A DNA stretch of 64,000 bases from a virus (lineage: Duplodnaviria; Caudoviricetes). The stretch's first letter is position 1. Each line of letters opens with the position of its first letter. Below are positions 3,611-62,035 of this stretch, piece by piece. Under the pieces are notes generated by a model. That model saw only the letters and a list, made by a program, of their open reading frames with translations. It searched no databases and was not told the origin of the DNA. The stretch covers positions 1-64,000 of the IMG/VR virus record IMGVR_UViG_3300049052_000033; one strand, written 5' to 3'. A program made the translations under genes and the position numbers.

Positions 3611-4225
3611 TTATGGGGCGACAACCTTGCAACGCCAAGACTGCGTGTGATACCTGCATGTCAGTTCGTTATAGTAGGTTCCTTCCAGCTTCAACATGCC
3701 GTTCTTAATGAAGAACACTTCAGCCCTGACCATGAACGGGATGACATCGACCGTCCCGTTCATGAGGCGGGCCACCGGTGTCGAGCGTCCAAAGGGCGCG
3801 AAGAACTCGTAGTCCAGTGACAACTGCCCTTCCGGATAATTGCTCTCGCGCCGGAATGCCTCCTGCCATCGCTTGACCGGCGTGCCGTCGGCAAAGAAGC
3901 ACTGGTGTATCGCCACCCGCCGGGGGATACGGCAACGCCACGACTGCGCGTGGTATTTACCCTTCAGATCATCGTAGTAGGTCCCCTCGACCTTCATCAG
4001 GCCGTCTTTGAGGAAGAACACTTCCGCCTTGATCATGGGCGGGATGACGTCGACGGCGCCATCCATCAGCCGGGCGACCTTCGTCCACCGGCCAAACGGC
4101 TCGTGAAACTCGTAGTCCAGGGTCAGCGCCCCCTGCGCCACCACGGCATCACGCCCAGGTGTACCCTGCCCGCGCTTCGTCGGAGTGCCATCATCCAAAA
4201 AGCACCGGTGTACCGCCACATGCAT
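3611..4225 (-). CDS. SOS-box-preceded protein made of two tandem ~100-aa homologous domains
   Basis: Internal repeat VAVHRCFLDDGTP...LDYEF..PFGR.T.VARLM.G.VDVIP...EGTYY....YH.QSWRC occurs twice; start placed at MHVAVH (4225). Confidence 0.75.
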   Translation of the reverse strand: MHVAVHRCFLDDGTPTKRGQGTPGRDAVVAQGALTLDYEFHEPFGRWTKVARLMDGAVDVIPPMIKAEVFFLKDGLMKVEGTYYDDLKGKYHAQSWRCRIPRRVAIHQCFFADGTPVKRWQEAFRRESNYPEGQLSLDYEFFAPFGRSTPVARLMNGTVDVIPFMVRAEVFFIKNGMLKLEGTYYNELTCRYHTQSWRCKVVAP

Positions 4226-4244
4226 GGTTCTTTCACTCAATAAA

Positions 4245-4264
4245 TACTGTATGTTTGTACAGTA
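4245..4264. promoter_or_regulatory. LexA (SOS) box
   Basis: TACTGTATGTTTGTACAGTA matches CTGT-N8-ACAG with TA flanks, about 20 bp upstream of the 4225 start. Confidence 0.85.
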
Positions 4265-4439: not shown

Positions 4440-4510
4440 GCCGCCGTAGTTCAGAGGTAGAACGGTCCTACAGGATGGATGCGTGGCTGGTTCGAGTCCA
4501 GCCGGCGGCA
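4440..4510 (+). pseudogene. tRNA-like element with a defective anticodon arm
   Basis: 7-bp acceptor stem GCCGCCG/CGGCGGC, D arm GTTC-AGAGGTA-GAAC, T arm GCTGG-TTCGAGT-CCAGC; anticodon arm cannot form the 5+7+5 geometry; no encoded CCA. Confidence 0.65.
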
Positions 4511-4563
4511 ACAAATGCAACACACAACGACGCCACTTTCCAGATAGGACTGGGCATAACCGT

Positions 4564-4641
4564 TGGGGTGTCGCCAAGCTGGTCGAAGGCACCGGGTTTT
4601 GATCCCGGCATACCAAGGTTCAAATCCTTGCGCCCTATCCA
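4564..4641 (+). tRNA. tRNA-Gln (anticodon TTG)
   Basis: Full cloverleaf; anticodon arm CCGGG-TTTTGAT-CCCGG; T loop TTCAAAT; encoded CCA. Confidence 0.93.
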
Positions 4642-4647
4642 AACACT

Positions 4648-4722
4648 TGTCATGTAGCTCAGAGGCAGAGCGTCGGATTGTTAATCCGGTGGTCGCTGGT
4701 TCGATCCCAGCCTTGACAGCCA
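4648..4722 (+). tRNA. tRNA-Asn (anticodon GTT)
   Basis: Full cloverleaf; anticodon arm TCGGA-TTGTTAA-TCCGG; T loop TTCGATC; encoded CCA; one T-T mismatch in the acceptor stem. Confidence 0.93.
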
Positions 4723-28542: not shown

Positions 28543-31500
28543 ATGAACCTGAACGAAGCACGCCAACGAATTCCGGCCCTGGCCAATCTCAACGATCAGG
28601 ACGCAATCGACGTCCTGCAACAGCACTACTATCCCGATATCGACAAGGCGCAGCTGGCGCAGGCCTTGGGCGTGCAAACGCCCCAGGTCGACCCACCGCA
28701 GGCTGGCGTACTACGCACGGCCGGCGATATGGGGATCAAGGTGGCACAGGGCGTGGTTGGACTGGGTCAGGCCGCTGTCGGCCTGGGCAGTCTGGCCACG
28801 GGCGGGCTGGTCGGCAAGGGCGCGCGCGCGCTGGGCTACGATCCGCAGCGCACCAAGGAAATCCTGGGTGAGTACCTGAGCGATAGCCAGAAAGCGTCCG
28901 ATGCCAAGGTCGCCAACGCCGATGGCTTCGTGGACACGATCGCCGCCTCCCTGTCCAACCCGCGCGCGCTGTTCGGCAGCGTCGCCGAATCGGCCCCCGG
29001 CATGTTGGGAGGCATGGGCGTGGCCCGTGCTGCAGCCGGCAAGATCGCCGCGCGCGCCGCACTGGCCCCCACCGAGGGCGCCGCCGCCAGCGCCGCAGAA
29101 CTGGCGGCAGGGCGTTCCGCCGCTTCGGCCGCCCAGGCAGCCCTGCGCACCAAGGCTGGCGCGCAGGCGGCCACCGACGCCGTCGAGGCGGCCGGTACCC
29201 GCCTGATGGTCACCGGGTCCGCCGTGGAAGGGGCCCAGACTGCGGGCCAGATTGCCGACGACGCGCAAGCGGCCGGCCGCAGCTACGGCGAATACGCCTT
29301 GCCGGCACTGGCAGCCGGCGTCGGGACAGCCGCCATCGGGGTGGGCGCCGGCAAATTCATGGGCGACAGCGCGACCCAGCTGGCTACCGGCGCGCGATCG
29401 ACGGGCGTGCGCGGCAGCCTGCCGGCGCGCATTGCCAAAGAGGCGCTGAGCGAGGGTGTACTGGAGGAAATGCCCCAGTCGGCGCAAGAACAGGTGTGGA
29501 CCAACGCCGCCATGGGCGAGGCCGACCTGTCCAAAGGTGTCGGCAATGCCGCCGGCGCCGGGCTGATCACGGGCGCTGCCATGGGCGGCGGTCTGGGCGT
29601 GCTGCAGGGGGAAGCGCACCACGCCCCCACGCCGGCACCGGTTCAGCTGCCCAACACCGGACCGCTGTCACAAGCAGCCAACGCCGGGCAAGCCGCAACA
29701 GCCGCCAAGGCCCAAGCCAACGCCACGGTGCCGCAGGCCCCGAGCCCAGCCCAGCCATCGCTGCAGGAAATTGACGACAGGATGGCCGCCCTGGTCGCGA
29801 TCGGCTCCGGCAGCCTGGCACGCAAAGAGCGCGACGCCGCCGGCAACCTGGTGACGATCCCGGCCGTGGCCGGGCGCCGCCTGACGACGGACGAAATCGC
29901 CGAATACAACCGCCTGAAGCAACTGCGCACCGAGCGCACCACCCTGACGCCCGCCCAGCAGGCAGAATTCAACCAGCTGCTGGCCGCCGAACAGGAACAG
30001 CACAACGCCAAGCATGCCGCAGCCATGGCCGCTGCCGCCGAGCAGCGTAACAAGGCTGAGGACGCCGAACTGGCCTCCTTGATGGCGCAGGACGAACGCG
30101 CGCGCCAGCAGGCCGAAGCGCAGCAGCTGGCCGACGCGATCGCCGCCAGCGACGCGCGGGTGGCCGCCGGTGACGCGCGACGTGCCGCCGACAAGCGCGC
30201 CGACCTGCGCACGGGGATCATCAATGATGCGGGCATTGCCGTGGCCGATCGCAAGCAGGCGTTCGCCGATCGTCTGCGGCAGGAGGGCTATCACAGCACC
30301 GCTTTGACCGACGACGATCATGCCGATTTCGACCAGGCCGCCGCGCCGCTGTCCAGCGCGCCCAACGAACTGCAGGACGCGGTCCCGGAACGCGTCGCAC
30401 CGCCTGTTGCGACTGCGGACACACCCAACCTGCGCGCGGTGGACGACGCGATCGCCGCCGGCATGCGCCTGAAAACGGCCAACGGCAAGGTGCTGCACAA
30501 GCCCGGGTCCAGCAAGATTTTCCGCCTGAACAGCGCGCAGCTGGCCTATTACCAGGAAGCGATCAACCGCCCGGCAGTGGCGCAACAGGCGCCCGCGCCG
30601 TCCACGGCCGTCCCCACGGTCGAACCTGTGAGCCCGGCGCCCGAACAAACCGCGGCCTCGCCGATGCTGGCCAACGCCCCACCCATCGCGCCGGCCAGCG
30701 ACGACGGCTTTGACGCCGCTGCCCATGCGGCGGCGACCTCGCCCCACAACGACCTGCCCGAGCCGACCCCAGCCCAAAAAGAGGCCGGGAATTACAAGGT
30801 CGGCCATGTCAGGCTTCATGGGCTGGACCTGTCCATCGAGAACCCCGTGGGGTCCGTGCGCCGCGGCGTCGACCGCGACGGTCAGGCGTGGGAGTCCACC
30901 ATGCAGCACCATTACGGCTACATCAAGGGCACGGTAGGCGCCGACAAAGACCACATCGACGTGTTTGTGGGGCCGAACCGCGACAGCGACAAGGCGTTCG
31001 TAGTCGACCAGGTGCATCCCGACAGCGGCAAGTTTGATGAACACAAGATCATGCTGGGCTTCGACTCCGTCGAGGCGGCGCGCGCCGGCTACCAGGCCAA
31101 TTACGACGCCAGCTGGACCGGCGGGCGCAACATCAGCGAAACGAGCATCGCCGGACTGAAGGACTGGCTGGCCAGCGGCAAAACCCGCAAACCATTTACC
31201 AAACTCCCATCCGCCGCCCCGGCAGCGGAACCGATGGTCGCCGTGACTCCACCGGTGTCCCGCCAAGCGCTGAACCACCTGACCGTCGCCGACATGAACG
31301 ACGACCAGCTGCTGCAGGCCAGGAGCGTGTTTGCCGGACATGCGCGCGAACCGAAGATCCTGCGCGAGCTGGTGCGGCGCGGGCTCGACGCGTCGGCCGC
31401 CGCACCGGGCGCGCCTGCGCCTGCAGCGGTCACGCAGACCGACTCCGCCACCACGAGTGTGGAACCCGATGCCTCGGGCAAACTTGCCAACGCCACGGCG

Positions 31501-34500
31501 CCGGAACACGTTCAGACCGGCGTCGATGACCGGGAGCTGGGCGAAATCGTCGCCGAGTTCAATGAGGCACAGGCGGAGATGATGGAGGGCGACCACGTCG
31601 TGTCCAACATCTTCCAGCCGCCGGCCAAGCGCGACATTGTGCGACTGGCGGACAAGGCGAAAGGCAAGCTGTGGAACCCGGTCGAGGTGAAAGCCTACAA
31701 CAAGGACCTGGCCGCACGCGACGAGCTGGAAAAGGAAGGTCAGCCGGTACCGGCCGAACTGGCCAAGCGCATCAGGGACTTCGAAGCCGTGTATCTGCCG
31801 CATGTGGCGAAGCTGCAAGCCGAAGCGCAGGCCGAAATCGGCGCGTGGAAGGCGCACGCGCAAGCACAGGGCCTGGACCCGGAAACACGCCGCGCCAACG
31901 GCCGCAAGATCGTGCTGTCGCTGTTCGACCTGTCCGGCGAATGGTCCAAACCATGGCTGGAAGCGGGCTATCAGGTGTATCGCTTTGACATTCAGGACGA
32001 TCCCGAAGTGGGCGACGTCAACAACTTCTCGTCGGAATTCTTCAGCGACTGGTTCGGTGACTTCGACGGACTGGATATTTACGCCATCCTTGCCGCCACG
32101 CCGTGCACCGACTTCGCCGTCAGCGGCGCGCGCCACTTCGCCGCCAAGGACAAGGACGGCCGCACCGTGGCCAGTGTCAAGCTGGTGCACCAGACCATGC
32201 GCACCATCGAGTACTTCAAGCCTGTCATCTGGGGCATTGAAAACCCGGTCGGGCGCATCGAAAGCCTGGGCGGGCTGCCGCCATGGCGACTGGCATTTGA
32301 CCCGAACCATCTGGGCGACTCGTACACCAAGAAAACCCTGATCTGGGGACGCTTCAACGCCGACCTGCCGGTCGCTCCGGTCGAGGCGACCGAAGGCAGC
32401 AAGATGCACAAGCAGTACGGCGGCAAGAGCATGGCCACCAAGAATGCGCGTAGCGTGACACCGGAAGGGTTCTCGTATGGCTTCTTCATGGCCAACAACG
32501 CCGTCGACCACCCTGTGATGGCGGTGGCCAACACGTTCGACCGTCTGGACCGTGACGCGATCGCCGAAGCCATGCGCGCCGGCGTGACGGAAGAAGAAAT
32601 CCGGGACGCCGTGCAGGACCTGTACTACATGGATCTGGACGACGATGCCGCCAACGACGCCATCCGCGCCCTGACCCGTGAGCACGCGACCGAGCCGGAT
32701 CCAGATCCGTCGCCGACCCAACCCCGCGGCAAGCAGGACGACACCGTGTCAGCCCCTGACGCGACACTGGCCGACAAAGCGGGACCGGCGGGCGATGACG
32801 CAGTGGCCACCGCGGCGCGCGACGATGCGCTGCAGTTCTCGCGGCGCCGTATCGACACCGACGACCAGCTGGTGAACATCTACAGCCAGATCGCGCAGGA
32901 CGACGCGGCCTTCCGCCTGCCCGACAGCCAAGGCAAGACGCTGGCCGCTGTCGTGGGCGACATGGCACCCGGTATCGTGGTCGATGGCGATGTTGAGATC
33001 GACCTGACCACGGCCGACGGGCCGAACGCCGACCGCGTCTGGCGCCTGCGCCGCGGCGACGGCGCCGGTGGGGACGCCCTGGTGTTCCGCAACACGCGCA
33101 ACAAACAGGTCTGGCTCAATATTTCGAACTGGAAGGAGGGCCGTAGCGGCCACCGCATCTACCAGGCGATCGCCACCTGGGCCCACAACACCGGACAGGT
33201 ATTCATCGGCGACCCGGATGGTCTGTCCGATAAGGCGCTGTACCGTCGCACCGAGCAAATGCTGTCGTCCGCGCTGCGCCACGGCACCACCGAGCACTTG
33301 GCGCCCCACGCACGCCAGGTCGAGGACACCCGCACCCACACGGGTACACCGGTGCGTCCGATTCATTGGCGCGAAGGCAACGATGCACGCAACTTGCGGG
33401 AACTGCTGGTTTCGTCCTACACTAACATTTCTGCAATTTTCCCTGAAATCGAACGTGTCCATTACAACTTCGCCACTGGCCAGTTTGAACGCCTCCCGGC
33501 ATCCGTTCGCGCACCTGAGCACGATGTACTGGCTCACGCTGCCGCTGGCGGAGAACGCGCTGCTGAAGAAGGGGTGGGACGCGGAAGCGATCGAGGCGCT
33601 GCCGGACACGGAATTGCTCGCGCTGATGAAGCAGACGGGCAGTTCGCACGAGTGGATGCAGTTCCTTTCACCGACGAGGATTTCGCAGCTCTTGTCCGGG
33701 AAGTTCGAACAGCTTATGAACAGTTCTACCCATCCTCCCGAGGAGCTTACACGCCACCGGTTGGCGTGTCTGATCTTAAGAGAGCGGCACTTACCGGCAC
33801 CGTTCTACGCGCAGAAGGAAGCGACGCAGGGCGAACGGTTCTGGATCACGTTGCAGAGCGGCTGCTACAACGAGTAAGCATCCCGCTGGAGTCGCTGCTG
33901 TATAGCCGCGACGCCGCCTATTTCCGCCACGACGACGCCTTCGCCCCGCCAGCCATTGAGCAGGGCGATACGGTCGGCGACACGCCGCCGGCCGCACTGG
34001 CCGGGCATGAGTACGTCCAGGCGCTCAAGGACACCGAGCAGCTGAACCGCCGCCTTGCCGGCGAAGGCATGGCGCCGGTCAAGGCGCTGCGCCAGGCCCC
34101 CACCACGCAATTCGCCATGGCGCGCCAGATCGGCAAGGCCTTGGGTATCCGGGTCCAGTTCGTATCGGGCAATGGCGACTTCGAAGGAGTTGCCACCGGC
34201 GGGGTGGCCTATCTGGCCAACGATATGCGCCAGCCTGCACTGGCCATTGCCGGCCACGAGACCCTGCACGCCCTGGAGCAAAGCAATCCCGCACTGGGCG
34301 AGCGCCTGCGCGCGCAGATCCGCAGCTACCTCAAGGAAGGAGTGGTGGATGACCGGCAGGCGCGCGAATATGCGGCCAGCGGCTTTCAGGAAGTCACCGA
34401 GCGGCAGGCCGAAAGCGAGGTCCTGGCCGATATCAACGGCGCCATGTGGCTGGACCCGGGCTTCTGGGCTGCATTGGCCAAGGCCGACCGCTCGCTATTC

Positions 34501-37500
34501 CGCACGGTGGCCTACAAGTTCATGGAAGTGGCCACGTCCCTGCTGGCGTCCCTGCGCCGCGGACGGTTCGACGTGACGCAACTGGTGTCGGACGTGGATG
34601 CGGTGCGCAACATTATGGTGGCGACCTGGGCCGAGCATACCCGTAGCCGGGACGCACTCACGCAAGACACAGCGCGCCGCGCGGTGCCGGTCTATGCGCC
34701 GGCACTGGACGGCTTAGTGGCGCCAGAACAGCAGCTGTCGACCGACGCGCTGCACCAGCTGGCGGACGCGGTCGTAGCGCCGCTCGCGCATCCGCCGCAA
34801 ATCTTCGTTCTGGATGGCCCGGAATTCCTCGACCGTCATCTGGTCGGGGCTGGCGAGGCGCCAGTGAGCGCGGGGGCGACGATCGGCGGCAAGATTTACC
34901 TGTTCCGTAACGGCATTTCCAGCCGGGATAGCGCGGCGGCCACGATCTGGCATGAGTTGTTCCACTATGGGCTCCGAAAACTGATGACGCCGGATAATTA
35001 TGTTTCGGCAATGTCGAAATTGTACAACATCGACCCACAGGTGAAGGCCTACGCCGATCGCTGGAAGGCGACCGAGGATGCGGCGACGCGCCATCGGTCC
35101 GGGGTCAGCGTGACCGACATGCACGTGCTGGCGGTGGAAGAAGCGCTGGCCGTGATGGCCGAGGAACAGCGCAACGGCAAGCCGGTCGGCACCCGCTATG
35201 CCACCGAAAGCCACATCGGCCGCATGCTGCTGTGGATGGTCAATACCGCCCGCAGCATGGGTCTGGACCGCGTGGCCGAAGCGCTGCGCAAACTGACCCG
35301 GGCGCAGGGCCAGGTGTTCGTGGAAAGCATTTTCGACCGCATCGCCGCCGGCGAACGGGAAGTCGAGGGTGCCATGGCGTCGCTCGACGGCCGCAGCATC
35401 AACTTCCGCGCAGCCGATGGTGCCCGACCTGCCACGGACAGCGACAACTTCCGCGCCTGGTTTGGTGATAGCAAGGTGGTGGACAAGGACGGGGAACCCT
35501 TGGTGGTCTACCACGGCACCACCCGTGACTTTTCCACGTTCGATATCGGCGAACCCTTCGGCGACAAAGAGGCAGGCGCGTTCTTCACCGCCGATCCGGG
35601 CGCCGCCAGCGCCTACGCGCACAAGGAAGGCGGGCGCGTCATGCCGGCATTCCTGCGCATTGAGCACCCTTACGTCACCACGGTAGAGGACTGGGAAAGC
35701 GGCGCGGCCAGTTCAGTGGACGCCATCAAACACGAGGGCCGGCATGATGGCTATCAGGTGAAAGGCTGGTCGGACGCGGGCGACATGTGGATCGCGTTTG
35801 AGCCCGAGCAGATCAAGTCCGCGATCGGCAACGACGGCAGCTTCGATGGCGAGAACCCGGATATCGCGTTCAGCCGTGCAGGGCTGGCCGCGGCGCTGGG
35901 CAAGGCCGCCGGCAACATTGAAAACGTGCGCCTGCCCGCCGGCTACCTGCTGGGCGACCTGTTCAACCGCAGCGGCAAGATCAGCTGGTGGCATAAAAGC
36001 ATCGGCACCATGGACAACCTGGCGCGTCGCCAGCCGCTGTTCGCGCCGGTGTACCGTGCCGTGCAGGGCTTCCTGGGCGACGTGTCGCGCTATGCCGTCG
36101 TGGCAGCCAACAAGGCCCCCACCCTGTTGCCGAAGCTGGAAAAAGTCGCCGACATCCTGGGCAAGGACCGCAAGAAGCCCTTGACGGCGGAGGACACCAA
36201 GGCCATCAGCGCACCGATCTTCGAAGGCACGCTGGTGTGGGCGCGCGACGCCCACGGCAAACCGGTCAAACTGGCCGAGCTGGAAGCATGGGCCGACGGC
36301 CTGACGACCGCCCAGAAGGCCGATATCCTGCTGCAGAAGGGCATCATTGATGACGAAACGAATCAGGCCTGGCTGCACAGCCCGCTGGATCACTACGATG
36401 AAAGCATCAATCGCCGCTTCACCACCACGCAGCTGCAGGCCGGCGTGGTATGGAGCGATGCGGAGCTGCGCGAGCTGTTCCAGCTGGACGACCGTCGCAT
36501 TGGCCTGTACCGCGAATTCCGCGCGGCGCTGGACCAGAGCCTGACCAACCTGACCATCAGCGAGATGGTCAAGCTGGGCGGCAAGGATGCCGAAGGCACG
36601 CTGGACTACGCCATGGCGCAGCCGGACCTGCGCGGTGCTGCGCATTACCTGCGTGATCATTTCGTGGCGCTGGCCAAGCTGCACCCTGAAAAGGCGGACT
36701 GGCATCTGGATACGGCGCGCCAGATCATGGACCTGGCCGACCGCGGCCAGGACCTGATGGACCGTGGCTACGCGCCACTGTCGCGTTTTGGCAAGCACAC
36801 CGTCTACGTGCAGCAGGGCGGCGACCAGGTGTACTTCGGCATGTTCGAAACCCCGTATGAAGCCGCCCGCATGGCGCGCCAGATGGAATCCGAGCACCCG
36901 GGCGCCGACGTGTCGCAGGGCACGGTCTCCGAAGATGCCTACAAGCTGTTCGCCGGCATCGCTCCGGAGACCATCGAGCTGTTCGGTTCCATGGTCGGGC
37001 TCGACAGCCAGGGTGACAGCGCAGGCAGCGAGGTGTACCAGTCGTACCTGAAACTGGCCAAGAACAACCGCAGCGCGATGAAGCGCATGATCGAGCGCAA
37101 GGGCATCGCCGGCTTCTCGGAGGACGCCGGCCGCGTGCTGGCCTCGTTCATCTATTCGAATGCCCGCCTCACCTCGGGTAACGCCAATCTGGGCAAGATT
37201 GACGAGGCCATCACCACCATTCCGAAGCAGGAAGGCGAACTAACCGACGCCGCCATGCAGCTGCGCGAGACCATCCGCAATTCCGAAGGCGGCAACCGGC
37301 TGGGCGGCCTGATGTTCGCCCAGTTCCTCGGTGGGTCGGTGGCATCCGCCCTGGTCAACCTGACGCAGCCGGTGACCATGACCTTGCCCTACCTGAGCCA
37401 ATATGGTGGTATCGGCAAGGCCGGCCAGCGTCTCGCCGGCGCCATCCGCGATGCCGGCAAGCGCAGCACGGGCGACGCGAGGCTGGACGCAGCGCTGCAA

Positions 37501-38799
37501 TGGGCCGCTGACGAAGGTATCGTGGCGCCGCAGGAAGTGCACTACCTGCAGGCGCAAGCGGCCGGCAAGGGGGCTTTGCAATCGGGCGATGGCACACGGG
37601 TCGGCAACGCCCGCGCGCAGCTGAACAACGCCTTGGCCAAGGTCCAGCTGGGCTGGGGCAAGTTGTTCGCCATGGCGGAGGAAGCCAACCGCCGGATCAC
37701 CTTCATTGCGGCCTACCGCACGGCCATCGAGGAAGGCAAGTCCGACCCGGCCCGCTTCGCCGAAGAAGTCGTGACGCAGACACAAGGTACCTACAACAGC
37801 GGCAACCGACCGAAGTGGGCGCGCAACCCGGTCGGTGGCGTCCTGATGACGTTCAAGCAGTACTCCATCGGCTATCTGGAGCTGTTGACACGCATGGCTT
37901 TCGCCGGCCCACCAGGTTCGCCCGAGCGTGCCGCCGGCCGCCGCGCGGCGCTGTACATGGTCGCCGTGCTGTTCCTGATGGCGGGCGCCGATGGACTGCC
38001 GTTCGAACAGGACCTGGAAGACGCCTTGGACGGCGTCATGCAGTGCCTCGGCTACAACTTCTCCACCAAGCGCGCCAAGCAAGAATTCCTGACCGGCGTG
38101 CTGGGCGCGGGCGGCGCCGACTTCGTGCTGAAAGGCGTGTCGAGCATGCCGGGCATGCCGATCGACGTGGCAGGGCGCTTCGGCATGGGCAACTTGATTC
38201 CCGGTACCGGCCTGTTGACGAAGAAAGATTCGTACACGCAGGACCTGGGCGAGCTGGTCGGCCCGGCGGGTGACGTGGCCAAGCGCACGTTCGCCGCCGC
38301 AGGCAAGCTCCTGGGCGGTGACGTCGCCGGCGCGGCGCTGGACATGTCGCCGGCAGCCGTGCGCAACGCCGTCAAGGGTGCCGACATGCTGTCGACCGGT
38401 CATTACTCGGACGGGCGTGGCTACAAGGTCAACGACACCACCCCGATCGAAGGCGTGCTGAAGATCGTCGGCTTCCAGCCAAACAGCACCGCGAATATCC
38501 AGGATGCGAAGGGGCAGGCGCTCGACATGATTAGCCAGACCCGGATGCGCTCCAAGGAGATTCAGGAGCACTGGGCGCAGGGTATTCTGGAAGGCGACGC
38601 CAGCACCATCGCCGAGGCCCGGGCGTGGCGCGACGACTGGAACGCCAAGAACCCGGAAGCGCCGGTGCGCGTGAATATGGCGGCGATCGCCAAGCGGGTG
38701 CGCAACATGCGTCAGGACGTGATGAACCGCACGCAGAAGACGGCGCCGGCCGCGCTGAAGGCGGCCGTGCGCAGCGAACTGTCCGAAACACGCGGATAA
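28543..38799 (+). CDS. Giant polyvalent internal virion protein (3418 aa; InPase-like, C5-MTase-like, two zincin, ART-like and PLxRFG domains)
   Basis: AQKEAGNYKVGH...HYGYIKGT.GAD.DHIDV (InPase-like, ~30770-31170); LSLFDLSG...ATPC...IENPV (MTase-like, ~31900-32510); HETLH (34255) and HELFH (34951); NFRAWFGDSKVVD..GEPLVVYHGT (ART-like, ~35440-35880); GYAPLSRFG (~36770). Confidence 0.9.
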   Translation: MNLNEARQRIPALANLNDQDAIDVLQQHYYPDIDKAQLAQALGVQTPQVDPPQAGVLRTAGDMGIKVAQGVVGLGQAAVGLGSLATGGLVGKGARALGYDPQRTKEILGEYLSDSQKASDAKVANADGFVDTIAASLSNPRALFGSVAESAPGMLGGMGVARAAAGKIAARAALAPTEGAAASAAELAAGRSAASAAQAALRTKAGAQAATDAVEAAGTRLMVTGSAVEGAQTAGQIADDAQAAGRSYGEYALPALAAGVGTAAIGVGAGKFMGDSATQLATGARSTGVRGSLPARIAKEALSEGVLEEMPQSAQEQVWTNAAMGEADLSKGVGNAAGAGLITGAAMGGGLGVLQGEAHHAPTPAPVQLPNTGPLSQAANAGQAATAAKAQANATVPQAPSPAQPSLQEIDDRMAALVAIGSGSLARKERDAAGNLVTIPAVAGRRLTTDEIAEYNRLKQLRTERTTLTPAQQAEFNQLLAAEQEQHNAKHAAAMAAAAEQRNKAEDAELASLMAQDERARQQAEAQQLADAIAASDARVAAGDARRAADKRADLRTGIINDAGIAVADRKQAFADRLRQEGYHSTALTDDDHADFDQAAAPLSSAPNELQDAVPERVAPPVATADTPNLRAVDDAIAAGMRLKTANGKVLHKPGSSKIFRLNSAQLAYYQEAINRPAVAQQAPAPSTAVPTVEPVSPAPEQTAASPMLANAPPIAPASDDGFDAAAHAAATSPHNDLPEPTPAQKEAGNYKVGHVRLHGLDLSIENPVGSVRRGVDRDGQAWESTMQHHYGYIKGTVGADKDHIDVFVGPNRDSDKAFVVDQVHPDSGKFDEHKIMLGFDSVEAARAGYQANYDASWTGGRNISETSIAGLKDWLASGKTRKPFTKLPSAAPAAEPMVAVTPPVSRQALNHLTVADMNDDQLLQARSVFAGHAREPKILRELVRRGLDASAAAPGAPAPAAVTQTDSATTSVEPDASGKLANATAPEHVQTGVDDRELGEIVAEFNEAQAEMMEGDHVVSNIFQPPAKRDIVRLADKAKGKLWNPVEVKAYNKDLAARDELEKEGQPVPAELAKRIRDFEAVYLPHVAKLQAEAQAEIGAWKAHAQAQGLDPETRRANGRKIVLSLFDLSGEWSKPWLEAGYQVYRFDIQDDPEVGDVNNFSSEFFSDWFGDFDGLDIYAILAATPCTDFAVSGARHFAAKDKDGRTVASVKLVHQTMRTIEYFKPVIWGIENPVGRIESLGGLPPWRLAFDPNHLGDSYTKKTLIWGRFNADLPVAPVEATEGSKMHKQYGGKSMATKNARSVTPEGFSYGFFMANNAVDHPVMAVANTFDRLDRDAIAEAMRAGVTEEEIRDAVQDLYYMDLDDDAANDAIRALTREHATEPDPDPSPTQPRGKQDDTVSAPDATLADKAGPAGDDAVATAARDDALQFSRRRIDTDDQLVNIYSQIAQDDAAFRLPDSQGKTLAAVVGDMAPGIVVDGDVEIDLTTADGPNADRVWRLRRGDGAGGDALVFRNTRNKQVWLNISNWKEGRSGHRIYQAIATWAHNTGQVFIGDPDGLSDKALYRRTEQMLSSALRHGTTEHLAPHARQVEDTRTHTGTPVRPIHWREGNDARNLRELLVSSYTNISAIFPEIERVHYNFATGQFERLPASVRAPEHDVLAHAAAGGERAAEEGVGRGSDRGAAGHGIARADEADGQFARVDAVPFTDEDFAALVREVRTAYEQFYPSSRGAYTPPVGVSDLKRAALTGTVLRAEGSDAGRTVLDHVAERLLQRVSIPLESLLYSRDAAYFRHDDAFAPPAIEQGDTVGDTPPAALAGHEYVQALKDTEQLNRRLAGEGMAPVKALRQAPTTQFAMARQIGKALGIRVQFVSGNGDFEGVATGGVAYLANDMRQPALAIAGHETLHALEQSNPALGERLRAQIRSYLKEGVVDDRQAREYAASGFQEVTERQAESEVLADINGAMWLDPGFWAALAKADRSLFRTVAYKFMEVATSLLASLRRGRFDVTQLVSDVDAVRNIMVATWAEHTRSRDALTQDTARRAVPVYAPALDGLVAPEQQLSTDALHQLADAVVAPLAHPPQIFVLDGPEFLDRHLVGAGEAPVSAGATIGGKIYLFRNGISSRDSAAATIWHELFHYGLRKLMTPDNYVSAMSKLYNIDPQVKAYADRWKATEDAATRHRSGVSVTDMHVLAVEEALAVMAEEQRNGKPVGTRYATESHIGRMLLWMVNTARSMGLDRVAEALRKLTRAQGQVFVESIFDRIAAGEREVEGAMASLDGRSINFRAADGARPATDSDNFRAWFGDSKVVDKDGEPLVVYHGTTRDFSTFDIGEPFGDKEAGAFFTADPGAASAYAHKEGGRVMPAFLRIEHPYVTTVEDWESGAASSVDAIKHEGRHDGYQVKGWSDAGDMWIAFEPEQIKSAIGNDGSFDGENPDIAFSRAGLAAALGKAAGNIENVRLPAGYLLGDLFNRSGKISWWHKSIGTMDNLARRQPLFAPVYRAVQGFLGDVSRYAVVAANKAPTLLPKLEKVADILGKDRKKPLTAEDTKAISAPIFEGTLVWARDAHGKPVKLAELEAWADGLTTAQKADILLQKGIIDDETNQAWLHSPLDHYDESINRRFTTTQLQAGVVWSDAELRELFQLDDRRIGLYREFRAALDQSLTNLTISEMVKLGGKDAEGTLDYAMAQPDLRGAAHYLRDHFVALAKLHPEKADWHLDTARQIMDLADRGQDLMDRGYAPLSRFGKHTVYVQQGGDQVYFGMFETPYEAARMARQMESEHPGADVSQGTVSEDAYKLFAGIAPETIELFGSMVGLDSQGDSAGSEVYQSYLKLAKNNRSAMKRMIERKGIAGFSEDAGRVLASFIYSNARLTSGNANLGKIDEAITTIPKQEGELTDAAMQLRETIRNSEGGNRLGGLMFAQFLGGSVASALVNLTQPVTMTLPYLSQYGGIGKAGQRLAGAIRDAGKRSTGDARLDAALQWAADEGIVAPQEVHYLQAQAAGKGALQSGDGTRVGNARAQLNNALAKVQLGWGKLFAMAEEANRRITFIAAYRTAIEEGKSDPARFAEEVVTQTQGTYNSGNRPKWARNPVGGVLMTFKQYSIGYLELLTRMAFAGPPGSPERAAGRRAALYMVAVLFLMAGADGLPFEQDLEDALDGVMQCLGYNFSTKRAKQEFLTGVLGAGGADFVLKGVSSMPGMPIDVAGRFGMGNLIPGTGLLTKKDSYTQDLGELVGPAGDVAKRTFAAAGKLLGGDVAGAALDMSPAAVRNAVKGADMLSTGHYSDGRGYKVNDTTPIEGVLKIVGFQPNSTANIQDAKGQALDMISQTRMRSKEIQEHWAQGILEGDASTIAEARAWRDDWNAKNPEAPVRVNMAAIAKRVRNMRQDVMNRTQKTAPAALKAAVRSELSETRG
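33524..33877 (+). CDS. Candidate nested (+1 frame) 117-aa gene inside the giant gene
   Basis: Third-position G/C bias moves from the main frame to the +1 frame over this stretch; weak RBS. Confidence 0.4.
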   Translation: MYWLTLPLAENALLKKGWDAEAIEALPDTELLALMKQTGSSHEWMQFLSPTRISQLLSGKFEQLMNSSTHPPEELTRHRLACLILRERHLPAPFYAQKEATQGERFWITLQSGCYNE

Positions 38800-44263: not shown

Positions 44264-44305
44264 TTACAACAATTTATTGTAAGCGATTTAAATAAATAAT
44301 TGAAG
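44264..44305 (-). promoter_or_regulatory. Sigma70 promoter overlapped by CI-type operators
   Basis: Minus-strand TTCAAT-N17-TACAAT; operator TTACAAC-AATTT-ATTGTAA (44264-44282) plus a half-conserved copy at 44287-44305. Confidence 0.7.
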
Positions 44306-57848: not shown

Positions 57849-58070
57849 TTAGTTGGTCGAAGTCAGAATGTGCGGCGGCAGCGACGGATTTCCCGGCGAT
57901 TGATACCAATAAACAACAATCACAACGATCAAGGCGAAACCCAGCGCAGTCAGCGCCTCGCCCCAAGTGGTTTGGTGCTCGCAAGGTGGTGCAGCGAATG
58001 GTGAAGTCGGGTATGCGGTGGTCATGCGCGGTTCCGTGCTGCGCGCCATGCGGTGCCGGCCAACAGGCAA
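57849..58070 (-). CDS. Small membrane protein (start uncertain, possibly 58025)
   Basis: Single TM helix ALTALGFALIVVIVVYW. Confidence 0.5.
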   Translation of the reverse strand: MPVGRHRMARSTEPRMTTAYPTSPFAAPPCEHQTTWGEALTALGFALIVVIVVYWYQSPGNPSLPPHILTSTN

Positions 58071-58183
58071 GCGGGCTTCCGTCCCGTTGAAAATGCTTGG
58101 TTAAAGGATGGCCGGACGGCGCCCGGGTCCTGTACGTTGCATCGAAAGTCCGCTTGCTTGTTGCCCGGCGTTCCCGCCGAGCG

Positions 58184-58233
58184 CTACAACAAATAGTTGA
58201 AGTTCAGCGAGTATATATCAATTTTTCGGTGTA
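58184..58233 (-). promoter_or_regulatory. Leftward sigma70 promoter with a CI-type operator just downstream
   Basis: Minus-strand TTGCTA-N16-TATACT; operator CTACAAC-AAATA-GTTGAAG at 58184-58202. Confidence 0.6.
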
Positions 58234-58335
58234 GCAAGTGCTGCATTCCGGCAAACCTGAATTCCGTTATACAAAATCAGCTTTCAGGAGTTGCAAATAA
58301 GGCTATATACTTTGCCCGAAGCATTGGAGATTTAT

Positions 58336-59343
58336 ATGTCCCGGCTGCCCCTATACCGACACCCAACGACAACCGTCATTCTTGACGAGTCGCAGCACCA
58401 CATTCACGCCGTGCCAACCGAGCTGGATACCCAGCACCCGACCGTCACCTTTACGAATGCGGCGGATGCCGTCGAATACATCACCGGGGCGCAGGCGATG
58501 ATGGACCATGCACGCAGCCCGATTGCCCTGGATCCTGTGGCGCCGGCGGCTGGCGTTCCGGTCGGGTCGCTTTCGGACGGGCTCGACCACATTTACGGCT
58601 ACGTGCAGGACCCGCAGCGATTCTGCGCGCCGGCAGTCGTGGTCGTTGAATACTCGCGCGCCGCCGGCGGGGGCATGGAGTTTTGCGAGGAAATCGCGCA
58701 CCTGCCCGTCAAGTGCATCTGGCGGTCCCGTGCCGCGGAGCAGCACGATGGTATTGCGGCCTATCAGCGCGGCCTGGTCAATCGGTTTGTGCAGCGCGAA
58801 GCGGGCTGGGCCAGCCGCGGCCTGTTGGAGTCCGTGGAAATGCTCGAGCACGAATACTTCGTGGAGCTATCCCAGCGCCTTCCGGGGCACATCCTTGATA
58901 CTGCGTCCTATCGCTTCCTGCAGGACCCGGCATTTGCCTCCCTGGTGCAGGAGCAGGCCGACCGCTATGGATTCGTCGAGCACTACCTGTTCACGGCACC
59001 CAGCGGCCTGTTGTTTTTCGACGCCGATGGGCATGCCACCTTGATGGTCGTCCAGACCGAAGAAAGCTTGGCCACCCAGTTCGAAATCGCGCGTGACGCG
59101 CAGGCACCGGTGCGCCTGTTGCAGGACCTGTTCAAGTGCAGGGTGGTGCCGTTTTTCGGCACGGAGGATGGCATGTACTCCGACCAGCTGGAGGACGATC
59201 CATGCAGCTATTGCCAGCCGGCGCTCGTATGTCGCGGAAGCAGCGACTACTACTGGGCATTGTTTGACGTGCCGCCCGGTATGCGAAAGGGCCAGGCCTT
59301 CCCTTATGCCCGGTATCGCGAGACAGGCCCGCTACGCGGTTAG
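58336..59343 (+). CDS. LqsR/JqsR-family response regulator homolog with an atypical receiver domain (Asp replaced by Glu)
   Basis: P.T.V..D(E)S N-terminus, P.RF...VVVVEY...GMEFC..I, GIAAYQRGLVNRFV, EYF, FL.DPAF, VEHYLF...SGLLFFDADG follow the recalled LqsR pattern over ~335 aa; GGAG RBS. Confidence 0.8.
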   Translation: MSRLPLYRHPTTTVILDESQHHIHAVPTELDTQHPTVTFTNAADAVEYITGAQAMMDHARSPIALDPVAPAAGVPVGSLSDGLDHIYGYVQDPQRFCAPAVVVVEYSRAAGGGMEFCEEIAHLPVKCIWRSRAAEQHDGIAAYQRGLVNRFVQREAGWASRGLLESVEMLEHEYFVELSQRLPGHILDTASYRFLQDPAFASLVQEQADRYGFVEHYLFTAPSGLLFFDADGHATLMVVQTEESLATQFEIARDAQAPVRLLQDLFKCRVVPFFGTEDGMYSDQLEDDPCSYCQPALVCRGSSDYYWALFDVPPGMRKGQAFPYARYRETGPLRG

Positions 59344-59348
59344 GGCCG

Positions 59349-60245
59349 CTACGATAGAAGGCCCAAGCGCACCGCTGCATCGACAATCTGGTTGGTGGTC
59401 TCGACGCCCAGCTTTCCCTTGATCGCCTTAATGCGGCGGTCAATGGTCGGAATGCTCACGCCCATGAAGGCAGCAATTTCTTTGCGCAGGCGGCCATTCT
59501 TCAGGTAGGCAATGATCTCCACGTCATTCGCCGGAATTCCGACTTCGTCTTGCTCCTGCGCTGAGGCCGCACGGGCAGCTTGCAATCGCCCCAGCAAGGC
59601 ATGCGCGGCGTGGGCCAGCATGATCAGGTTTGGCTCCATTTGCGCCAGCTCGACCGGGTCAATGTCCGGATCTGCGCGCGATAGGACCAGAGTAGCCAGG
59701 CCGTCATCGGAGCGGAGCACCCAGCCAGAGCGAATACCGTGCCGGCTCGCCAGTGACCAGAACGCCGGGTTTTCTGCATGGCGTTCTCGCGCGGTCCATG
59801 TGGTTGGCCCTGTCATTTGGTTGACGCGTGGATCGATCAGGACAAGTTGTTCCCGATCGTAGGCCTCGCGCCATTCCCGCAGGTGATTGTGTTCTACCAC
59901 CATGTCGCCTGGGTCGCGCGCAGAGTGGGCCACGCCCAGCGTGGTGCCGAAACCGAATTTCTCGCGCGCCAGCTTGGCGATCGCCGAAAACTGCTTGTGA
60001 TCGGGCAGGTCTTGCAGTTCACGAATGATGCGTTTGCCCCACCGGTTGGTCCCGTCGCGGTGCTCGATCGGCAAGGTGAGCGGCGCGTCGCGCGCCTGGC
60101 GCTGCACTCGTTCCGCCGACAGGATGCGTTGATGAATGGTCTTGAGCTGCAGCCAAGGCTGCCAATCGACACGGCGACGAATCCTGCGCAGCACGAAACT
60201 GGCGAACTCGCCGGCCGGCACCGGCATGCCCGTGCTCTCCGACAT
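59349..60245 (-). CDS. LuxR-family regulator (autoinducer-binding domain plus HTH), orphan, with N-terminal extension
   Basis: W125, Y129, D138, P139, W150, G174 match the conserved AHL-pocket W/Y/D/P/W/G set; C-terminal LuxR HTH (KEIAAFMGVSIPTIDRRI..IKGKLGV). Confidence 0.88.
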   Translation of the reverse strand: MSESTGMPVPAGEFASFVLRRIRRRVDWQPWLQLKTIHQRILSAERVQRQARDAPLTLPIEHRDGTNRWGKRIIRELQDLPDHKQFSAIAKLAREKFGFGTTLGVAHSARDPGDMVVEHNHLREWREAYDREQLVLIDPRVNQMTGPTTWTARERHAENPAFWSLASRHGIRSGWVLRSDDGLATLVLSRADPDIDPVELAQMEPNLIMLAHAAHALLGRLQAARAASAQEQDEVGIPANDVEIIAYLKNGRLRKEIAAFMGVSIPTIDRRIKAIKGKLGVETTNQIVDAAVRLGLLS

Positions 60246-60505
60246 AGCGTAATGTTCGACGTGATGCCATGCGGCGGGATGACGAACCGTCGAAGGCTAT
60301 CATCGTAGTACCAGTGCCATCGGACCCACACATCCGGCTGATAGCTTCCACGCCATTCAGCGAATCCCGCTATCAGGACCGGGAAAAGGCGCTTCAATTG
60401 CTCCAGCAGCTGGTCGTCCACGTCGATCGTCAGGCGGCGCTGCGCGATGCGCTTCAAGGCTGCGCGGGTCAGGCGCACTTCCTGGTCGTGGGTTGAGCCG
60501 GTCAT
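60246..60505 (-). pseudogene. Upstream coding segment that appears frameshifted relative to the LuxR ORF
   Basis: 87 high-GC3 codons from ATG 60505 (MTGSTHDQ); the coding signal switches frame at ACG CTA TGT / ATG TCG with no stop codon. Confidence 0.45.
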
Positions 60506-60724
60506 GTCGTTGCCTGTGTGGCGAAATGCGTGTGGGGACGGACAAGCGGGTGTTACCAAGCCTATCACGAAAGCTATCACGTCCTTGATAGTTTAAGCTC
60601 AGCTGTTACATTGTCACAGTGCGCTTAATTGATAGCTAACAGGTGTTGCCTTGGCGCCATCGGCGATGCCAAGATACTGACCTCGTTTCTTGACTTACAT
60701 CAACAATCGTAAAGGTAGCGTTCG

Positions 60725-60985
60725 ATGAGTAAAGTGGTATCCCGCCTGACCCGCATTGCAACCGGTAGCATGACCTCTGATCGTACTGAAGCCGCGGCGC
60801 TCTACGCCCTGGCACAAGCCTATCGCCGCGCGTCGCGGGCCGATCAGGCCTATTTACTGGCGGTGGCCCAAGACCTGGGCCGTGGCGAAGATTTGGAAAT
60901 GGAGCAAGTCGTGGCCCGCATGCCGGCGCCGGCTTCCCGTGGAAGGTTACGCTTGGTTCAGGGCGGCGGGCGGCAGAGCCGGTAA
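60725..60985 (+). CDS. Small protein resembling the CI C-terminal domain (candidate antirepressor)
   Basis: AAAGG RBS; residues 28-51 align ungapped with CI residues 106-129; divergent from luxR and convergent with cI. Confidence 0.6.
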   Translation: MSKVVSRLTRIATGSMTSDRTEAAALYALAQAYRRASRADQAYLLAVAQDLGRGEDLEMEQVVARMPAPASRGRLRLVQGGGRQSR

Positions 60986-61393
60986 CTCCCCTGCAGGCTT
61001 TTTCTCAATCCGTGCGGCCGACAGCAGCAGCTGTCGCTGGCCGGCATCGGTGCCCATGCGGAAGTGGTGCAGCAGTTCCATCTCCTTCGTCCCCTCGACG
61101 AAAACCAGCAAATACTCCGGCTGCTGCCGACGCGGGCCGGTGGGGATCGTCTGGACCTGGCCATCGATGTCGCCATACAACAAGTAGGATTCGGTCACCC
61201 CGAAGTGCATGGCCAGCTTGGTCAGCATGGCAGGGCGTGGAAGCTGCGGGCCAGTCAGCCATTTGCTGACCGCTTGCGGCGAAGTCCCGACGATGCGCGC
61301 AAGTTCGGACTGGTTGCCGTCGTGATATTCGTGCAGTAAGGCTCTGAGGCGGTCCGCGAAAGTTTCCGGCGCCTTCTCTTTCATTTGTTCCAT
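60947..61393 (-). CDS. cI: CI-like XRE/HTH repressor without an S24 autopeptidase domain
   Basis: FADRLRALL...NQSELARIVGTSPQAVSKW HTH; only 148 aa; divergent from cro. Confidence 0.88.
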   Translation of the reverse strand: MEQMKEKAPETFADRLRALLHEYHDGNQSELARIVGTSPQAVSKWLTGPQLPRPAMLTKLAMHFGVTESYLLYGDIDGQVQTIPTGPRRQQPEYLLVFVEGTKEMELLHHFRMGTDAGQRQLLLSAARIEKKPAGELPALPPAALNQA

Positions 61394-61402
61394 TGCAATA
61401 GG

Positions 61403-61469
61403 TTACAACGTTTCGTTGTAAATGGCACTTCAATATTTTGTTGTAGAAACCCCTCTGTTGTTTTAATAT
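61403..61469. promoter_or_regulatory. cI/cro operator pair and rightward promoter
   Basis: TTACAAC-GTTTC-GTTGTAA (61403-61421), CTTCAAT-ATTTT-GTTGTAG (61428-61446); TTGTAG-N17-TAATAT (61441-61469). Confidence 0.8.
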
Positions 61470-61504
61470 TTTGGTTCAATAGTTTTTGCCAATGGAAACA
61501 GGAA

Positions 61505-61702
61505 TTGAGTACAGGAATAGCAAAGGCAGTGGAGCTTGCCGGCAATTCGCAGACAGGCCTCGCTAAAGCCATCGGGTTGACCCCGCAGGCCGTACAGCGC
61601 TGGGTGTCGCTGGGCCGCACTTCCGCGCAGGGCGCTGTGCTGATTGAAAAGGCCTACCCGGGCCGCATTACGCGCGCCGAACTCTGTCCGATCTTCGCCT
61701 GA
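61505..61702 (+). CDS. cro: Cro-like repressor (YdaS type)
   Basis: TTG start; KAVELAGNSQTGLAKAIGLTPQAVQRW HTH; TRAELCP C-terminus. Confidence 0.85.
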   Translation: MSTGIAKAVELAGNSQTGLAKAIGLTPQAVQRWVSLGRTSAQGAVLIEKAYPGRITRAELCPIFA

Positions 61703-61732: not shown

Positions 61733-62035
61733 ATGACCAACGAAACCACTGCAGTAGAGACTGAACTGGAATTCTCGCGTTCCTCGCTACTTGACGAGGT
61801 TCAATTATCTCCGGAAGTGACCAGCCGGTCACGCAAGAATCAATCGGTAATCTTGCAAAAGATGCAGGAAGTGACGGGCGTTGAGTTGGCGGCCCGCATG
61901 GGCTTCCACGAATCCCAGATTTCGCGCTTCAAGAATGGCCCGTTGCAGTTCGCTGCCTGCCTGCTGGCAGCAGCAGGCCTGAAAGTGGTGCCGGCCGACG
62001 CCGTGGTCTATGTCAAGCCGACCGAGTACGAATGA
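61733..62035 (+). CDS. cII: CII-family transcriptional regulator
   Basis: SRKNQSVILQKM...LAARMGFHESQISRFK...LLAAAGLKVVP; position after cro. Confidence 0.8.
   Translation: MTNETTAVETELEFSRSSLLDEVQLSPEVTSRSRKNQSVILQKMQEVTGVELAARMGFHESQISRFKNGPLQFAACLLAAAGLKVVPADAVVYVKPTEYE

What the first reader, a model, noticed from the sequence alone, without database searches (positions are those of the whole stretch)
58336..61702. Candidate dual quorum-sensing control module wired into the lysis/lysogeny switch
Seen gene order: lqsR-like (+), luxR (-), ~220-bp intergenic region with repeats, small ORF (+), cI (-), cro (+); CI lacks the RecA-activated protease domain. Known: vibriophage VP882 uses a phage QS receptor to induce a small antirepressor (Qtip), and LuxR-type receptors occur in linear plasmid-like phages. 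Inference: this circular phage-plasmid senses AHLs through LuxR, induces a CI-mimic antirepressor, and at the same time manipulates the host's separate alpha-hydroxyketone system. Two QS chemistries converging on one switch would be new.
Basis: inference. Interest (0 to 1): 0.92.

Follow-up and report, generated by a model that had tools for sequence, protein, structure and literature searches.

The report
Phage RsaM–LuxR sensor beside lysis switch
A family of bacterial viruses that live as plasmids in soil and water bacteria (Massilia and relatives) carries a fused quorum-sensing receptor that probably switches on a small anti-repressor to trigger lysis, plus a borrowed regulator from a second signalling system whose link to the switch is unproven.

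Summary
The gene order is real and conserved in 13 related 70–87 kb phage-plasmids; every host that could be named is Massilia. The 'luxR' is really an RsaM(DUF4902)–AHL-binding–HTH fusion (60505–59349). One base is missing in this assembly; sibling assemblies are intact (385 aa). All six AHL-pocket residues are kept. The small ORF is a conserved partner of the peptidase-less CI. Its promoter has two TGATAG boxes, one abutting the −35, in 11/11 fusion-bearing elements aligned. The boxes are absent from three relatives without the fusion and changed in one with an RsaM–HTH lacking the AHL domain (two independent events). This supports fusion → small ORF control. That the small ORF is an antirepressor is inferred; CI mimicry is statistically weak. 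The LqsR/JqsR homologue is real and under purifying selection, but in this clade its phosphorylation site has decayed, so it cannot relay host α-hydroxyketone signals canonically. The sister clade keeps the site. Nothing links it to the switch except position and co-occurrence. A LexA-box gene elsewhere offers a separate SOS route. Verdict: a new variant of LuxR–smORF induction modules with unreported parts. Convergence of two chemistries is possible (~0.2), not shown.

The parts
58185..58201 (.). CI-operator-like site (TACAAC-N5-GTTGTA type) at the leftward early promoter (O_L); the QS genes lie between it and cI, as rexAB do in lambda
   Evidence: Motif scan; leftward promoter-like site 58237-58210; similar sites in relatives; operator role inferred
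58302..58311 (+). Conserved GCTATATACT element about 25 nt upstream of lqsR-like; likely its -10 region
   Evidence: Present in 9 of 11 upstream regions printed (absent in L092, L096)
58336..59343 (+). LqsR/JqsR-family protein, 335 aa, pseudo-receiver: phospho-Asp->E105, acid pair D17-E18, conserved Lys->R154
   Evidence: 6SY9 match; alignment; tree and residue table; dN/dS 0.21 vs L001
59349..60505 (-). RsaM(DUF4902)-AHL-binding-HTH fusion, 385 aa when intact; W212, Y216, D225, P226, W237, G261 correspond to TraR W57, Y61, D70, P71, W85, G113
   Evidence: Pfam; alignment; AlphaFold/Foldseek of the L001 orthologue hits QscR/RhlR/SdiA and RsaM 4O2H (E 2e-6); dN/dS 0.10 (RsaM part) and 0.21 (LuxR part)
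60245..60246 (-). One base missing in the Leu87 codon in this assembly; it splits RsaM from the LuxR part
   Evidence: Gene is 1158 nt in JGI 3300071325 and SRR35218746 vs 1157 here; P0176 (385 aa) equals window residues 1-87 plus the 298-aa ORF. Assembly error versus real mutation not resolved
60562..60579 (.). Two extra CTATCA half-sites 12 bp apart (window and L001 only)
60586..60601 (.). Box A, consensus TGATAG-N4-CT(A/G)TCA (right half degenerate here); inferred binding site of the fusion
60604..60618 (.). Palindrome TGTTAC-N3-GTCACA between the boxes; clade-specific, unexplained; not a LexA box (9-nt spacer)
   Evidence: win, L001, L002, L116
60630..60645 (+). Box B (TGATAG half-site plus degenerate half) abutting the -35; the class II activator position
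   Evidence: Six invariant columns in 10 loci; absent in TF-less relatives
60646..60675 (+). Promoter of the small ORF: -35 TTGCCT, -10 CAAGAT (relatives TTGC(C/A)N-17-CAAAGT)
   Evidence: inferred from conservation
60725..60985 (+). Small ORF, 86 aa: conserved helix pair, linker and C-terminal LRLV motif; overlaps the cI 3' end by 39 bp; candidate antirepressor
   Evidence: Family found in every element with this CI type; dN/dS 0.29-0.40; no Pfam/PHROG/PDB family
60947..61393 (-). CI repressor, 148 aa, DicA-like, no autoproteolysis domain
61404..61445 (.). Two O_R operator-like palindromes
61505..61702 (+). Cro/YdaS-like regulator (TTG start inferred)
61733..62035 (+). CII-like regulator
3611..4263 (-). 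Canonical LexA box (4246-4263) directly upstream of a 203-aa gene of two similar ~100-aa domains; candidate SOS-route inducer, separate from the QS module
   Evidence: Only CTGT-N8-ACAG site in the genome; homologues behind SOS boxes in L263 and L264

Best explanation
The element is a temperate podovirus-like phage-plasmid of Oxalobacteraceae. Its non-cleavable CI has a dedicated small partner protein. In most family members an RsaM-LuxR fusion sits in the accessory slot between O_L and cI and controls that partner. Step 1 (inferred from pocket residues): host- or neighbour-made AHL binds the fusion. Step 2 (inferred, best supported): the fusion binds boxes A and B and activates the small-ORF promoter as a class II activator. 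Step 3 (inferred by analogy): the small protein binds and inactivates CI, possibly handing it to ClpXP through its LRLV tail, and lysis follows. The RsaM domain probably gates the receptor. The LqsR/JqsR paralogue is a co-travelling modulator of host JQS signalling, not an input to the switch. It is phosphorylatable in one clade and a phosphorylation-independent pseudo-receiver in this one. In the window's own copy the fusion is frameshifted, so this route would be off if the deletion is real.
For: Full module in 12 elements checked on DNA plus one by gene calls. All genes under purifying selection. AHL pocket W/Y/D/W/G invariant in 15 fusions; residue set as in PMC10134790. Box B abuts the -35 in all fusion-bearing elements; boxes are absent in TF-less L117, L118, L195, which instead have a nearer-consensus -35 (TTGATG, TTGACG); boxes change to TGATG-type in L116 with RsaM-HTH. 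The small ORF occurs with this CI type in every relative examined. The host M. frigida CCM 8695 has luxI genes and jqsA-jqsS-jqsR. Precedent: LuxR plus divergent smORF antirepressor in Apop and ARM81ld (PMC10432266). The LRLV tail resembles host SspB tails (PTLTRIK), and an XB-linker-bait design is enough for ClpXP delivery (PMC12373786).
Against: No experiment. Box co-variation rests on two independent events, since the TF-less elements form one clade (bootstrap 97). CI-CTD similarity of the small ORF is not significant by hhalign and weak by PSSM. TF-less relatives have a strong-looking small-ORF promoter with no visible repressor site or LexA box, which is hard to square with a constitutive antirepressor. 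The LRLV tail is lost in a Massilia subgroup (L003, L009, P0188, P0190, P0191). Only one host genome could be checked for luxI.
Confidence: 0.42

Rival explanations
1. Dual-input gate: the LqsR/JqsR paralogue is a required partner of the RsaM-LuxR fusion, as XRE is for LuxR in Apop. In the Asp-retaining clade, host JqsS phosphorylation then brings alpha-hydroxyketone information into the same promoter.
For: LqsR-like is the convergent neighbour in all 14 fusions with an AHL domain whose context was read, including L101 without cI, and is missing in the 4 relatives without that domain. 10 of 19 phage-type copies keep the full phosphorylation site. Aeromonas phage LuxRs need a second factor (PMC10432266). 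RsaM is thought to act through protein contacts (PMC10710839).
Against: Adjacency can be plain linkage, and the co-absence is about two events. In the window's clade the phospho-Asp, acid pair and Lys are all lost (9/9), so no canonical signal relay is possible. LqsR has no DNA-binding domain and its output is unknown; the family can decouple from Lqs (PMC10653808).
Confidence: 0.2
2. The fusion controls the small-ORF promoter, but the output is not protein antirepression leading to lysis. Either the small protein is a CI co-repressor or stabiliser, so QS favours lysogeny, or the effect is antisense transcription into the overlapping cI 3' end.
For: TF-less relatives keep a near-consensus small-ORF promoter. 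The genes overlap convergently by 39 bp with no terminator-like site between them. QS-driven lysogeny is reported in Phaeobacter prophages (10.64898/2026.07.02.736140).
Against: The protein sequence is under purifying selection with a conserved tail, which argues against a purely antisense role. All characterised TF-smORF modules are antirepressors (PMC10432266).
Confidence: 0.15
3. The fusion regulates the small ORF, but its real input is not an AHL. It responds through the RsaM domain to a host protein or another cue, and the ligand domain is structural or binds something else.
For: RsaM-HTH versions without the AHL domain exist and keep boxes at the same positions (L116; P0034, P0035). The receptor is only about 24% identical to a host LuxR. 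Most Janthinobacterium/Duganella strains surveyed lacked luxI (PMC5080296).
Against: All six pocket residues are conserved over 30-70% divergent homologues, and the one host checked encodes LuxI.
Confidence: 0.13
4. The QS genes are accessory cargo in the rexAB-like slot that tune host quorum sensing. Induction runs through the LexA-controlled gene at 3611-4222, independently of them.
For: The slot between O_L and cI is a usual cargo site (own knowledge). The family is viable without the QS genes (L117, L118, L195). A LexA-box gene is present. Gifsy-type non-cleavable repressors use distant LexA-controlled antirepressors (PMC3121763). A phage QS anti-activator, Aqs1, is a precedent (PMC13043044).
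Against: The boxes sit at the small-ORF -35 and track the fusion. The box-A pattern occurs only once elsewhere in the 7.8-Mb host genome, about chance level, so no host regulon is evident.
Confidence: 0.1

Closest known systems
XRE-LuxR-smORF modules of Aeromonas linear plasmid-phages Apop and ARM81ld (PMC10432266, PMC6456758)
   Same: Phage LuxR-type AHL receptor divergent from a small ORF, no luxI; proposed smORF antirepression of CI
   Different: Here: circular phage-plasmid, non-cleavable CI (a class that study excluded), module adjacent to cI, no XRE partner, RsaM fused to the receptor, LqsR-like neighbour; function untested
Vibriophage VP882 VqmA-Qtip (described in PMC10432266)
   Same: QS receptor-TF drives a small antirepressor
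   Different: DPO/PAS receptor, linear telN phage, cleavable CI; no sequence similarity to the small ORF found
RsaM-LuxR chimera, 'type 8' rsaM arrangement (PMC10710839)
   Same: Same domain order, noted in two Massilia species as a LuxR solo
   Different: That review does not mention phage. Here the chimera is shown to be a phage-plasmid gene beside cI, with a candidate target promoter
LqsR (Legionella, PDB 6SY9), JqsR (Janthinobacterium/Duganella), PhcX (Ralstonia)
   Same: Same fold and family over the whole length
   Different: Phage-borne, no lqsA/lqsS nearby, separate clade from 85 host-type copies; phosphorylation site decayed in the window's subclade
Gifsy GfoR/GftA, N15 AntC, 186 Tum: non-cleavable repressors with antirepressors (PMC3121763)
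   Same: Short DicA-like repressor that needs an antirepressor
   Different: Those antirepressors are LexA-controlled and far from cI; the small ORF here has no LexA box, though a LexA-box gene exists elsewhere
Phaeobacter prophage xre-luxR-luxI switches (10.64898/2026.07.02.736140)
   Same: Phage LuxR at the lysis-lysogeny decision
   Different: They make their own AHL, lack cI/cro, and promote lysogeny

Membership tests
TF-smORF prophage induction modules (Silpe et al. 2023) | TF gene divergent from a small ORF | tested here: met
   Fusion and small ORF are divergent across 219 bp; conserved
TF-smORF prophage induction modules (Silpe et al. 2023) | TF activates the smORF promoter | tested here: inconclusive
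   Boxes at the -35 track the TF; no binding or reporter data
TF-smORF prophage induction modules (Silpe et al. 2023) | smORF inactivates CI non-proteolytically | not testable with these tools
   Needs a reporter or binding assay; sequence mimicry weak
TF-smORF prophage induction modules (Silpe et al. 2023) | Linear telN plasmid-phage with autoproteolytic CI | tested here: not met
   Terminal repeat, circular relative, tyrosine recombinase, CI without peptidase
XRE-LuxR module (Apop type) | xre gene in an operon with luxR | tested here: not met
   No xre next to the fusion in any locus
AHL-binding LuxR solo | Autoind_bind plus LuxR-type HTH | tested here: met
   PF03472 above cut-off; PF00196 weak, below cut-off in the window's protein; fold matches QscR/RhlR/SdiA
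AHL-binding LuxR solo | Six pocket residues W57 Y61 D70 P71 W85 G113 | tested here: met
   All six in the window's protein; five invariant in 15 fusions
AHL-binding LuxR solo | No adjacent luxI | tested here: met
   None in the neighbourhoods read, none on NZ_CP024609; the window's own record was not searched with the family model
AHL-binding LuxR solo | Binds AHL | not testable with these tools
   Needs a ligand assay
RsaM family (PF16245) | DUF4902 domain and RsaM fold | tested here: met
   41.6 bits vs cut-off 25; Foldseek to 4O2H E 2e-6
LqsR/JqsR response regulator | Full-length homology and fold | tested here: met
LqsR/JqsR response regulator | Phospho-acceptor Asp (D108), acid pair and Lys | tested here: not met
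   E105, D17-E18, R154; intact in 85/85 host-type copies and in the sister phage clade
LqsR/JqsR response regulator | Clustered with synthase and sensor kinase | tested here: not met
   No jqsA/jqsS in any fusion-bearing locus
ClpX adaptor (SspB XB type) | C-terminal XB motif that binds the ClpX zinc-binding domain | tested here: inconclusive
   LRLV-type tail resembles host SspB tail; four residues only, lost in one subgroup
LexA-controlled antirepressor (Gifsy/N15/186 type) | LexA box before the antirepressor gene | tested here: not met
   No CTGT-N8-ACAG (<=1 mismatch) upstream of the small ORF in 15 elements

The most novel reading that the evidence does not exclude
One phage promoter integrates two unrelated quorum-sensing chemistries. 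An RsaM-LuxR fusion reads AHL and needs a captured JqsR paralogue, phosphorylated by the host alpha-hydroxyketone kinase in one clade and signal-independent in the other, to switch on an adaptor-type antirepressor that delivers a non-cleavable CI to ClpXP.
Probability: 0.12. Interest if true: 0.93.

Novelty: new variant of a known kind. Interest (0 to 1): 0.72.

Why it matters
It would extend quorum-sensing control of prophage induction from linear Vibrio/Aeromonas phages with cleavable repressors to circular phage-plasmids with non-cleavable CI in soil, plant and polar Oxalobacteraceae. I found no report of a phage-encoded LqsR/JqsR or of a phage-encoded RsaM. RsaM's mechanism is an open question (PMC10710839). 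The natural series here (no TF; RsaM-HTH; RsaM-AHL domain-HTH plus LqsR-like), with a predicted target promoter, makes it directly testable. A cultured lysogen exists (M. violaceinigra B2, NZ_CP024609.1).

Tried and rejected
Complex prediction of CI with the small ORF gave no answer (score 0.13, mark 0.32) and is not used either way. hhalign of small ORF vs CI was not significant. ESM Atlas searches of the small ORF and the CI C-terminal part gave only sub-threshold leads. PDB, Pfam and PHROG searches found no family for the small ORF. Single-protein scans of viral contigs found nothing; alignments did. No LqsR homologue in the INPHARED phage set. Rejected: the palindrome at 60603-60619 as a LexA box (9-nt spacer); the TGATAG boxes as CI operators (CI-type sites are TACAAC-N5-GTTGTA at O_R/O_L); the boxes as the JAI-1 motif TTGA-N6/7-TCAA (spacing differs); a host regulon for the boxes (one extra site in 7.8 Mb); the 298-aa ORF as the real gene; 'built-in phosphomimetic' as a general rule (the acceptor is E in 7, A in 1 and K in 1, and Lys and the acid pair are also lost). 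The tree is the quick version (SH-aLRT only).
Full report
The element. The window is the first 64 kb of a single 72,364-bp contig. It has terminase, portal, major head and tail genes, a replicase, ParAB and a tyrosine recombinase. Bases 10-135 repeat as the last 126 bases, so it assembled as a circle. Its major head protein is 80% identical to that of NZ_CP024609.1, a complete circular 87-kb 'plasmid' of Massilia violaceinigra B2 that carries the same module. Other relatives lie in M. antarctica, M. frigida and Massilia sp. CCM 9210 assemblies and on 70-80 kb metagenomic contigs. The window's own host is not known; Oxalobacteraceae is inferred from these relatives.

The gene order is as described. 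CI is 148 aa with an HTH and no peptidase domain. The 'luxR' is longer than the 298-aa ORF: relatives encode 378-397 aa proteins with DUF4902, an autoinducer-binding domain and an HTH. In the window the DUF4902 part starts at 60505 and lies one base out of frame. Other assemblies of the same element have the gene at 1158 nt and 385 aa, and P0176 equals the window's residues 1-87 plus the 298-aa ORF. One base is therefore missing in the Leu87 codon here. DUF4902 is RsaM, and an RsaM-LuxR chimera was noted in two Massilia species without any link to phage (PMC10710839). A model of the L001 orthologue matches QscR, RhlR and SdiA and the RsaM structure 4O2H. The six AHL-pocket residues listed in PMC10134790 are present, five of them invariant in 15 fusions. 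In 401 sampled genomes of the host family, fusion-length frames appeared in three: two on these phage-plasmids and one in L101.

Synteny and selection. The full order lqsR-like, fusion, small ORF, cI, cro, cII is present in 12 elements checked on DNA and one more by gene calls. dN/dS is 0.10-0.21 for the fusion, 0.13-0.42 for lqsR-like and 0.29-0.40 for the small ORF. CI-operator-like palindromes lie between cI and cro and again at 58185 beside the leftward early promoter. The QS genes thus occupy the slot between O_L and cI where lambda keeps rexAB (own knowledge), so adjacency to cI alone does not prove wiring.

Evidence for wiring of the fusion to the small ORF. Upstream of the small ORF, ten loci of 53% mean identity share box A (TGATAG-N4-CT(A/G)TCA), box B 42-45 bp further on, and directly after box B a -35 TTGC(C/A)N, 17 nt and a -10 CAAAGT. 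Box B sits where class II LuxR activators bind (own knowledge). The two-box pattern is in 11/11 fusion-bearing elements, with shuffle frequency at most 0.001. Three relatives (L117, L118, L195) have the same CI and small ORF but no fusion and no lqsR-like gene; they lack the boxes and have a -35 nearer consensus. L116 has an RsaM-HTH without the AHL domain and no lqsR-like gene, and its boxes read TGATG at the same positions. The TF-less elements form one clade (bootstrap 97), so this is two independent events, not four.

The small ORF. It is found in every relative with this CI type, with or without QS genes, so it is a core partner of the switch and the QS regulator is plugged in upstream of it. 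It has a conserved helix pair, a variable linker and an LRLV-type tail. The CI-mimic idea is only weakly supported: hhalign places the helix pair on the CI C-terminal helices but at E 0.51, and a PSSM test puts 8 of 10 sequences in that register with scores of 6-11, against 20% of control chunks reaching 5 and 2% reaching 10. The tail resembles the ClpX-binding tail of host SspB (design precedent in PMC12373786), which suggests an adaptor that delivers CI to ClpXP. It is four residues and is lost in one Massilia subgroup, so this is a lead. The direction of the effect is inferred from Apop, ARM81ld and VP882 (PMC10432266). TF-less relatives show no repressor site or LexA box at this promoter, which leaves room for a co-repressor or antisense role.

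The LqsR-like protein. It matches Legionella LqsR over its length. Nineteen phage-type copies group apart from 85 host-type copies, most of which lie beside jqsS. All host-type copies and ten phage-type copies keep the phospho-Asp, acid pair and Lys. The nine in the window's clade have lost them (acceptor E in seven, A in one, K in one). The window's protein is therefore a maintained pseudo-receiver that cannot take phosphate from JqsS in the usual way; the sister clade could. It lies next to all 14 AHL-domain fusions whose context was read, including L101, which has no cI or small ORF, and is missing where that domain is missing. That fits a partnership but also simple linkage. LqsR's output is unknown and the family can be rewired away from Lqs (PMC10653808). 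The one host genome that could be searched, M. frigida CCM 8695, has luxI genes and jqsA-jqsS-jqsR, so both signals are plausible there.

A parallel route. The genome's only canonical LexA box (4246-4263) precedes an unknown 203-aa gene whose homologues also follow SOS boxes in two relatives. By analogy with Gifsy phages (PMC3121763) it may be an SOS-induced antirepressor; this was not tested.

Verdict. Shown: anatomy, conservation, domain content, loss of the phosphorylation site, box/TF co-variation. Inferred: AHL binding, activation, antirepression, ClpX delivery. It works like a LuxR-smORF induction module but fails two membership features of the described family (linear telN phage with cleavable CI; XRE partner). 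Literature searches found no report of this module or of a phage LqsR or RsaM. I rate it a new variant of a known kind, interest 0.72. Best explanation 0.42; the dual-input reading 0.2.

Noticed in passing
window 3611-4263: Perfect LexA box before a 203-aa gene made of two similar ~100-aa domains; single-domain homologues follow SOS boxes in L263 and L264, while in L262 the box precedes a umuD-like gene. No Pfam family; weak phrog_5560.
   Followed up: partly
window 44265-44281: A third CI-operator-like palindrome far from the immunity region, in an AT-rich intergenic stretch before the gene at 44383.
   Followed up: no
window 4440-4722: tRNA-Gln(TTG), tRNA-Asn(GTT) and an atypical tRNA-like call with a 4-base anticodon loop reading.
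   Followed up: no
window 2082-3596: KAP-family P-loop NTPase, a possible anti-phage or exclusion cargo gene.
   Followed up: no
window 58055-58169: Long inverted repeat (27-nt arms) in the leader of the leftward early operon; similar leader hairpins appear in relatives; may be an antitermination or RNA element.
   Followed up: no
L116:6763-7395; P0034, P0035: RsaM-HTH fusions that lack the AHL-binding domain (210-221 aa); in L116 in the same slot with altered boxes.
   Followed up: partly
L101:7001-9210: RsaM-LuxR plus LqsR-like pair without cI, small ORF or boxes on a 298-kb contig of a genome in which luxI and jqsS were not found; possibly a prophage remnant.
   Followed up: partly
P0043, P0046: RsaM fused to canonical LuxR proteins, distinct from the phage clade; context not looked up.
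   Followed up: no
L003:10535-10782; L009:9523-9796: Small ORF has lost its LRLV tail by a frame change in one Massilia subgroup; the tail persists in another frame in L003.
   Followed up: partly
L001, L002, L090 replication regions: The module stays constant while the plasmid replicon varies (Replicase-PriCT in the window, L001 and L002; Rep3 in L090).
   Followed up: no
window 28543-38799: Giant 3418-aa ORF at the position of the PLxRFG protein of NZ_CP024609.1; not analysed.
   Followed up: no
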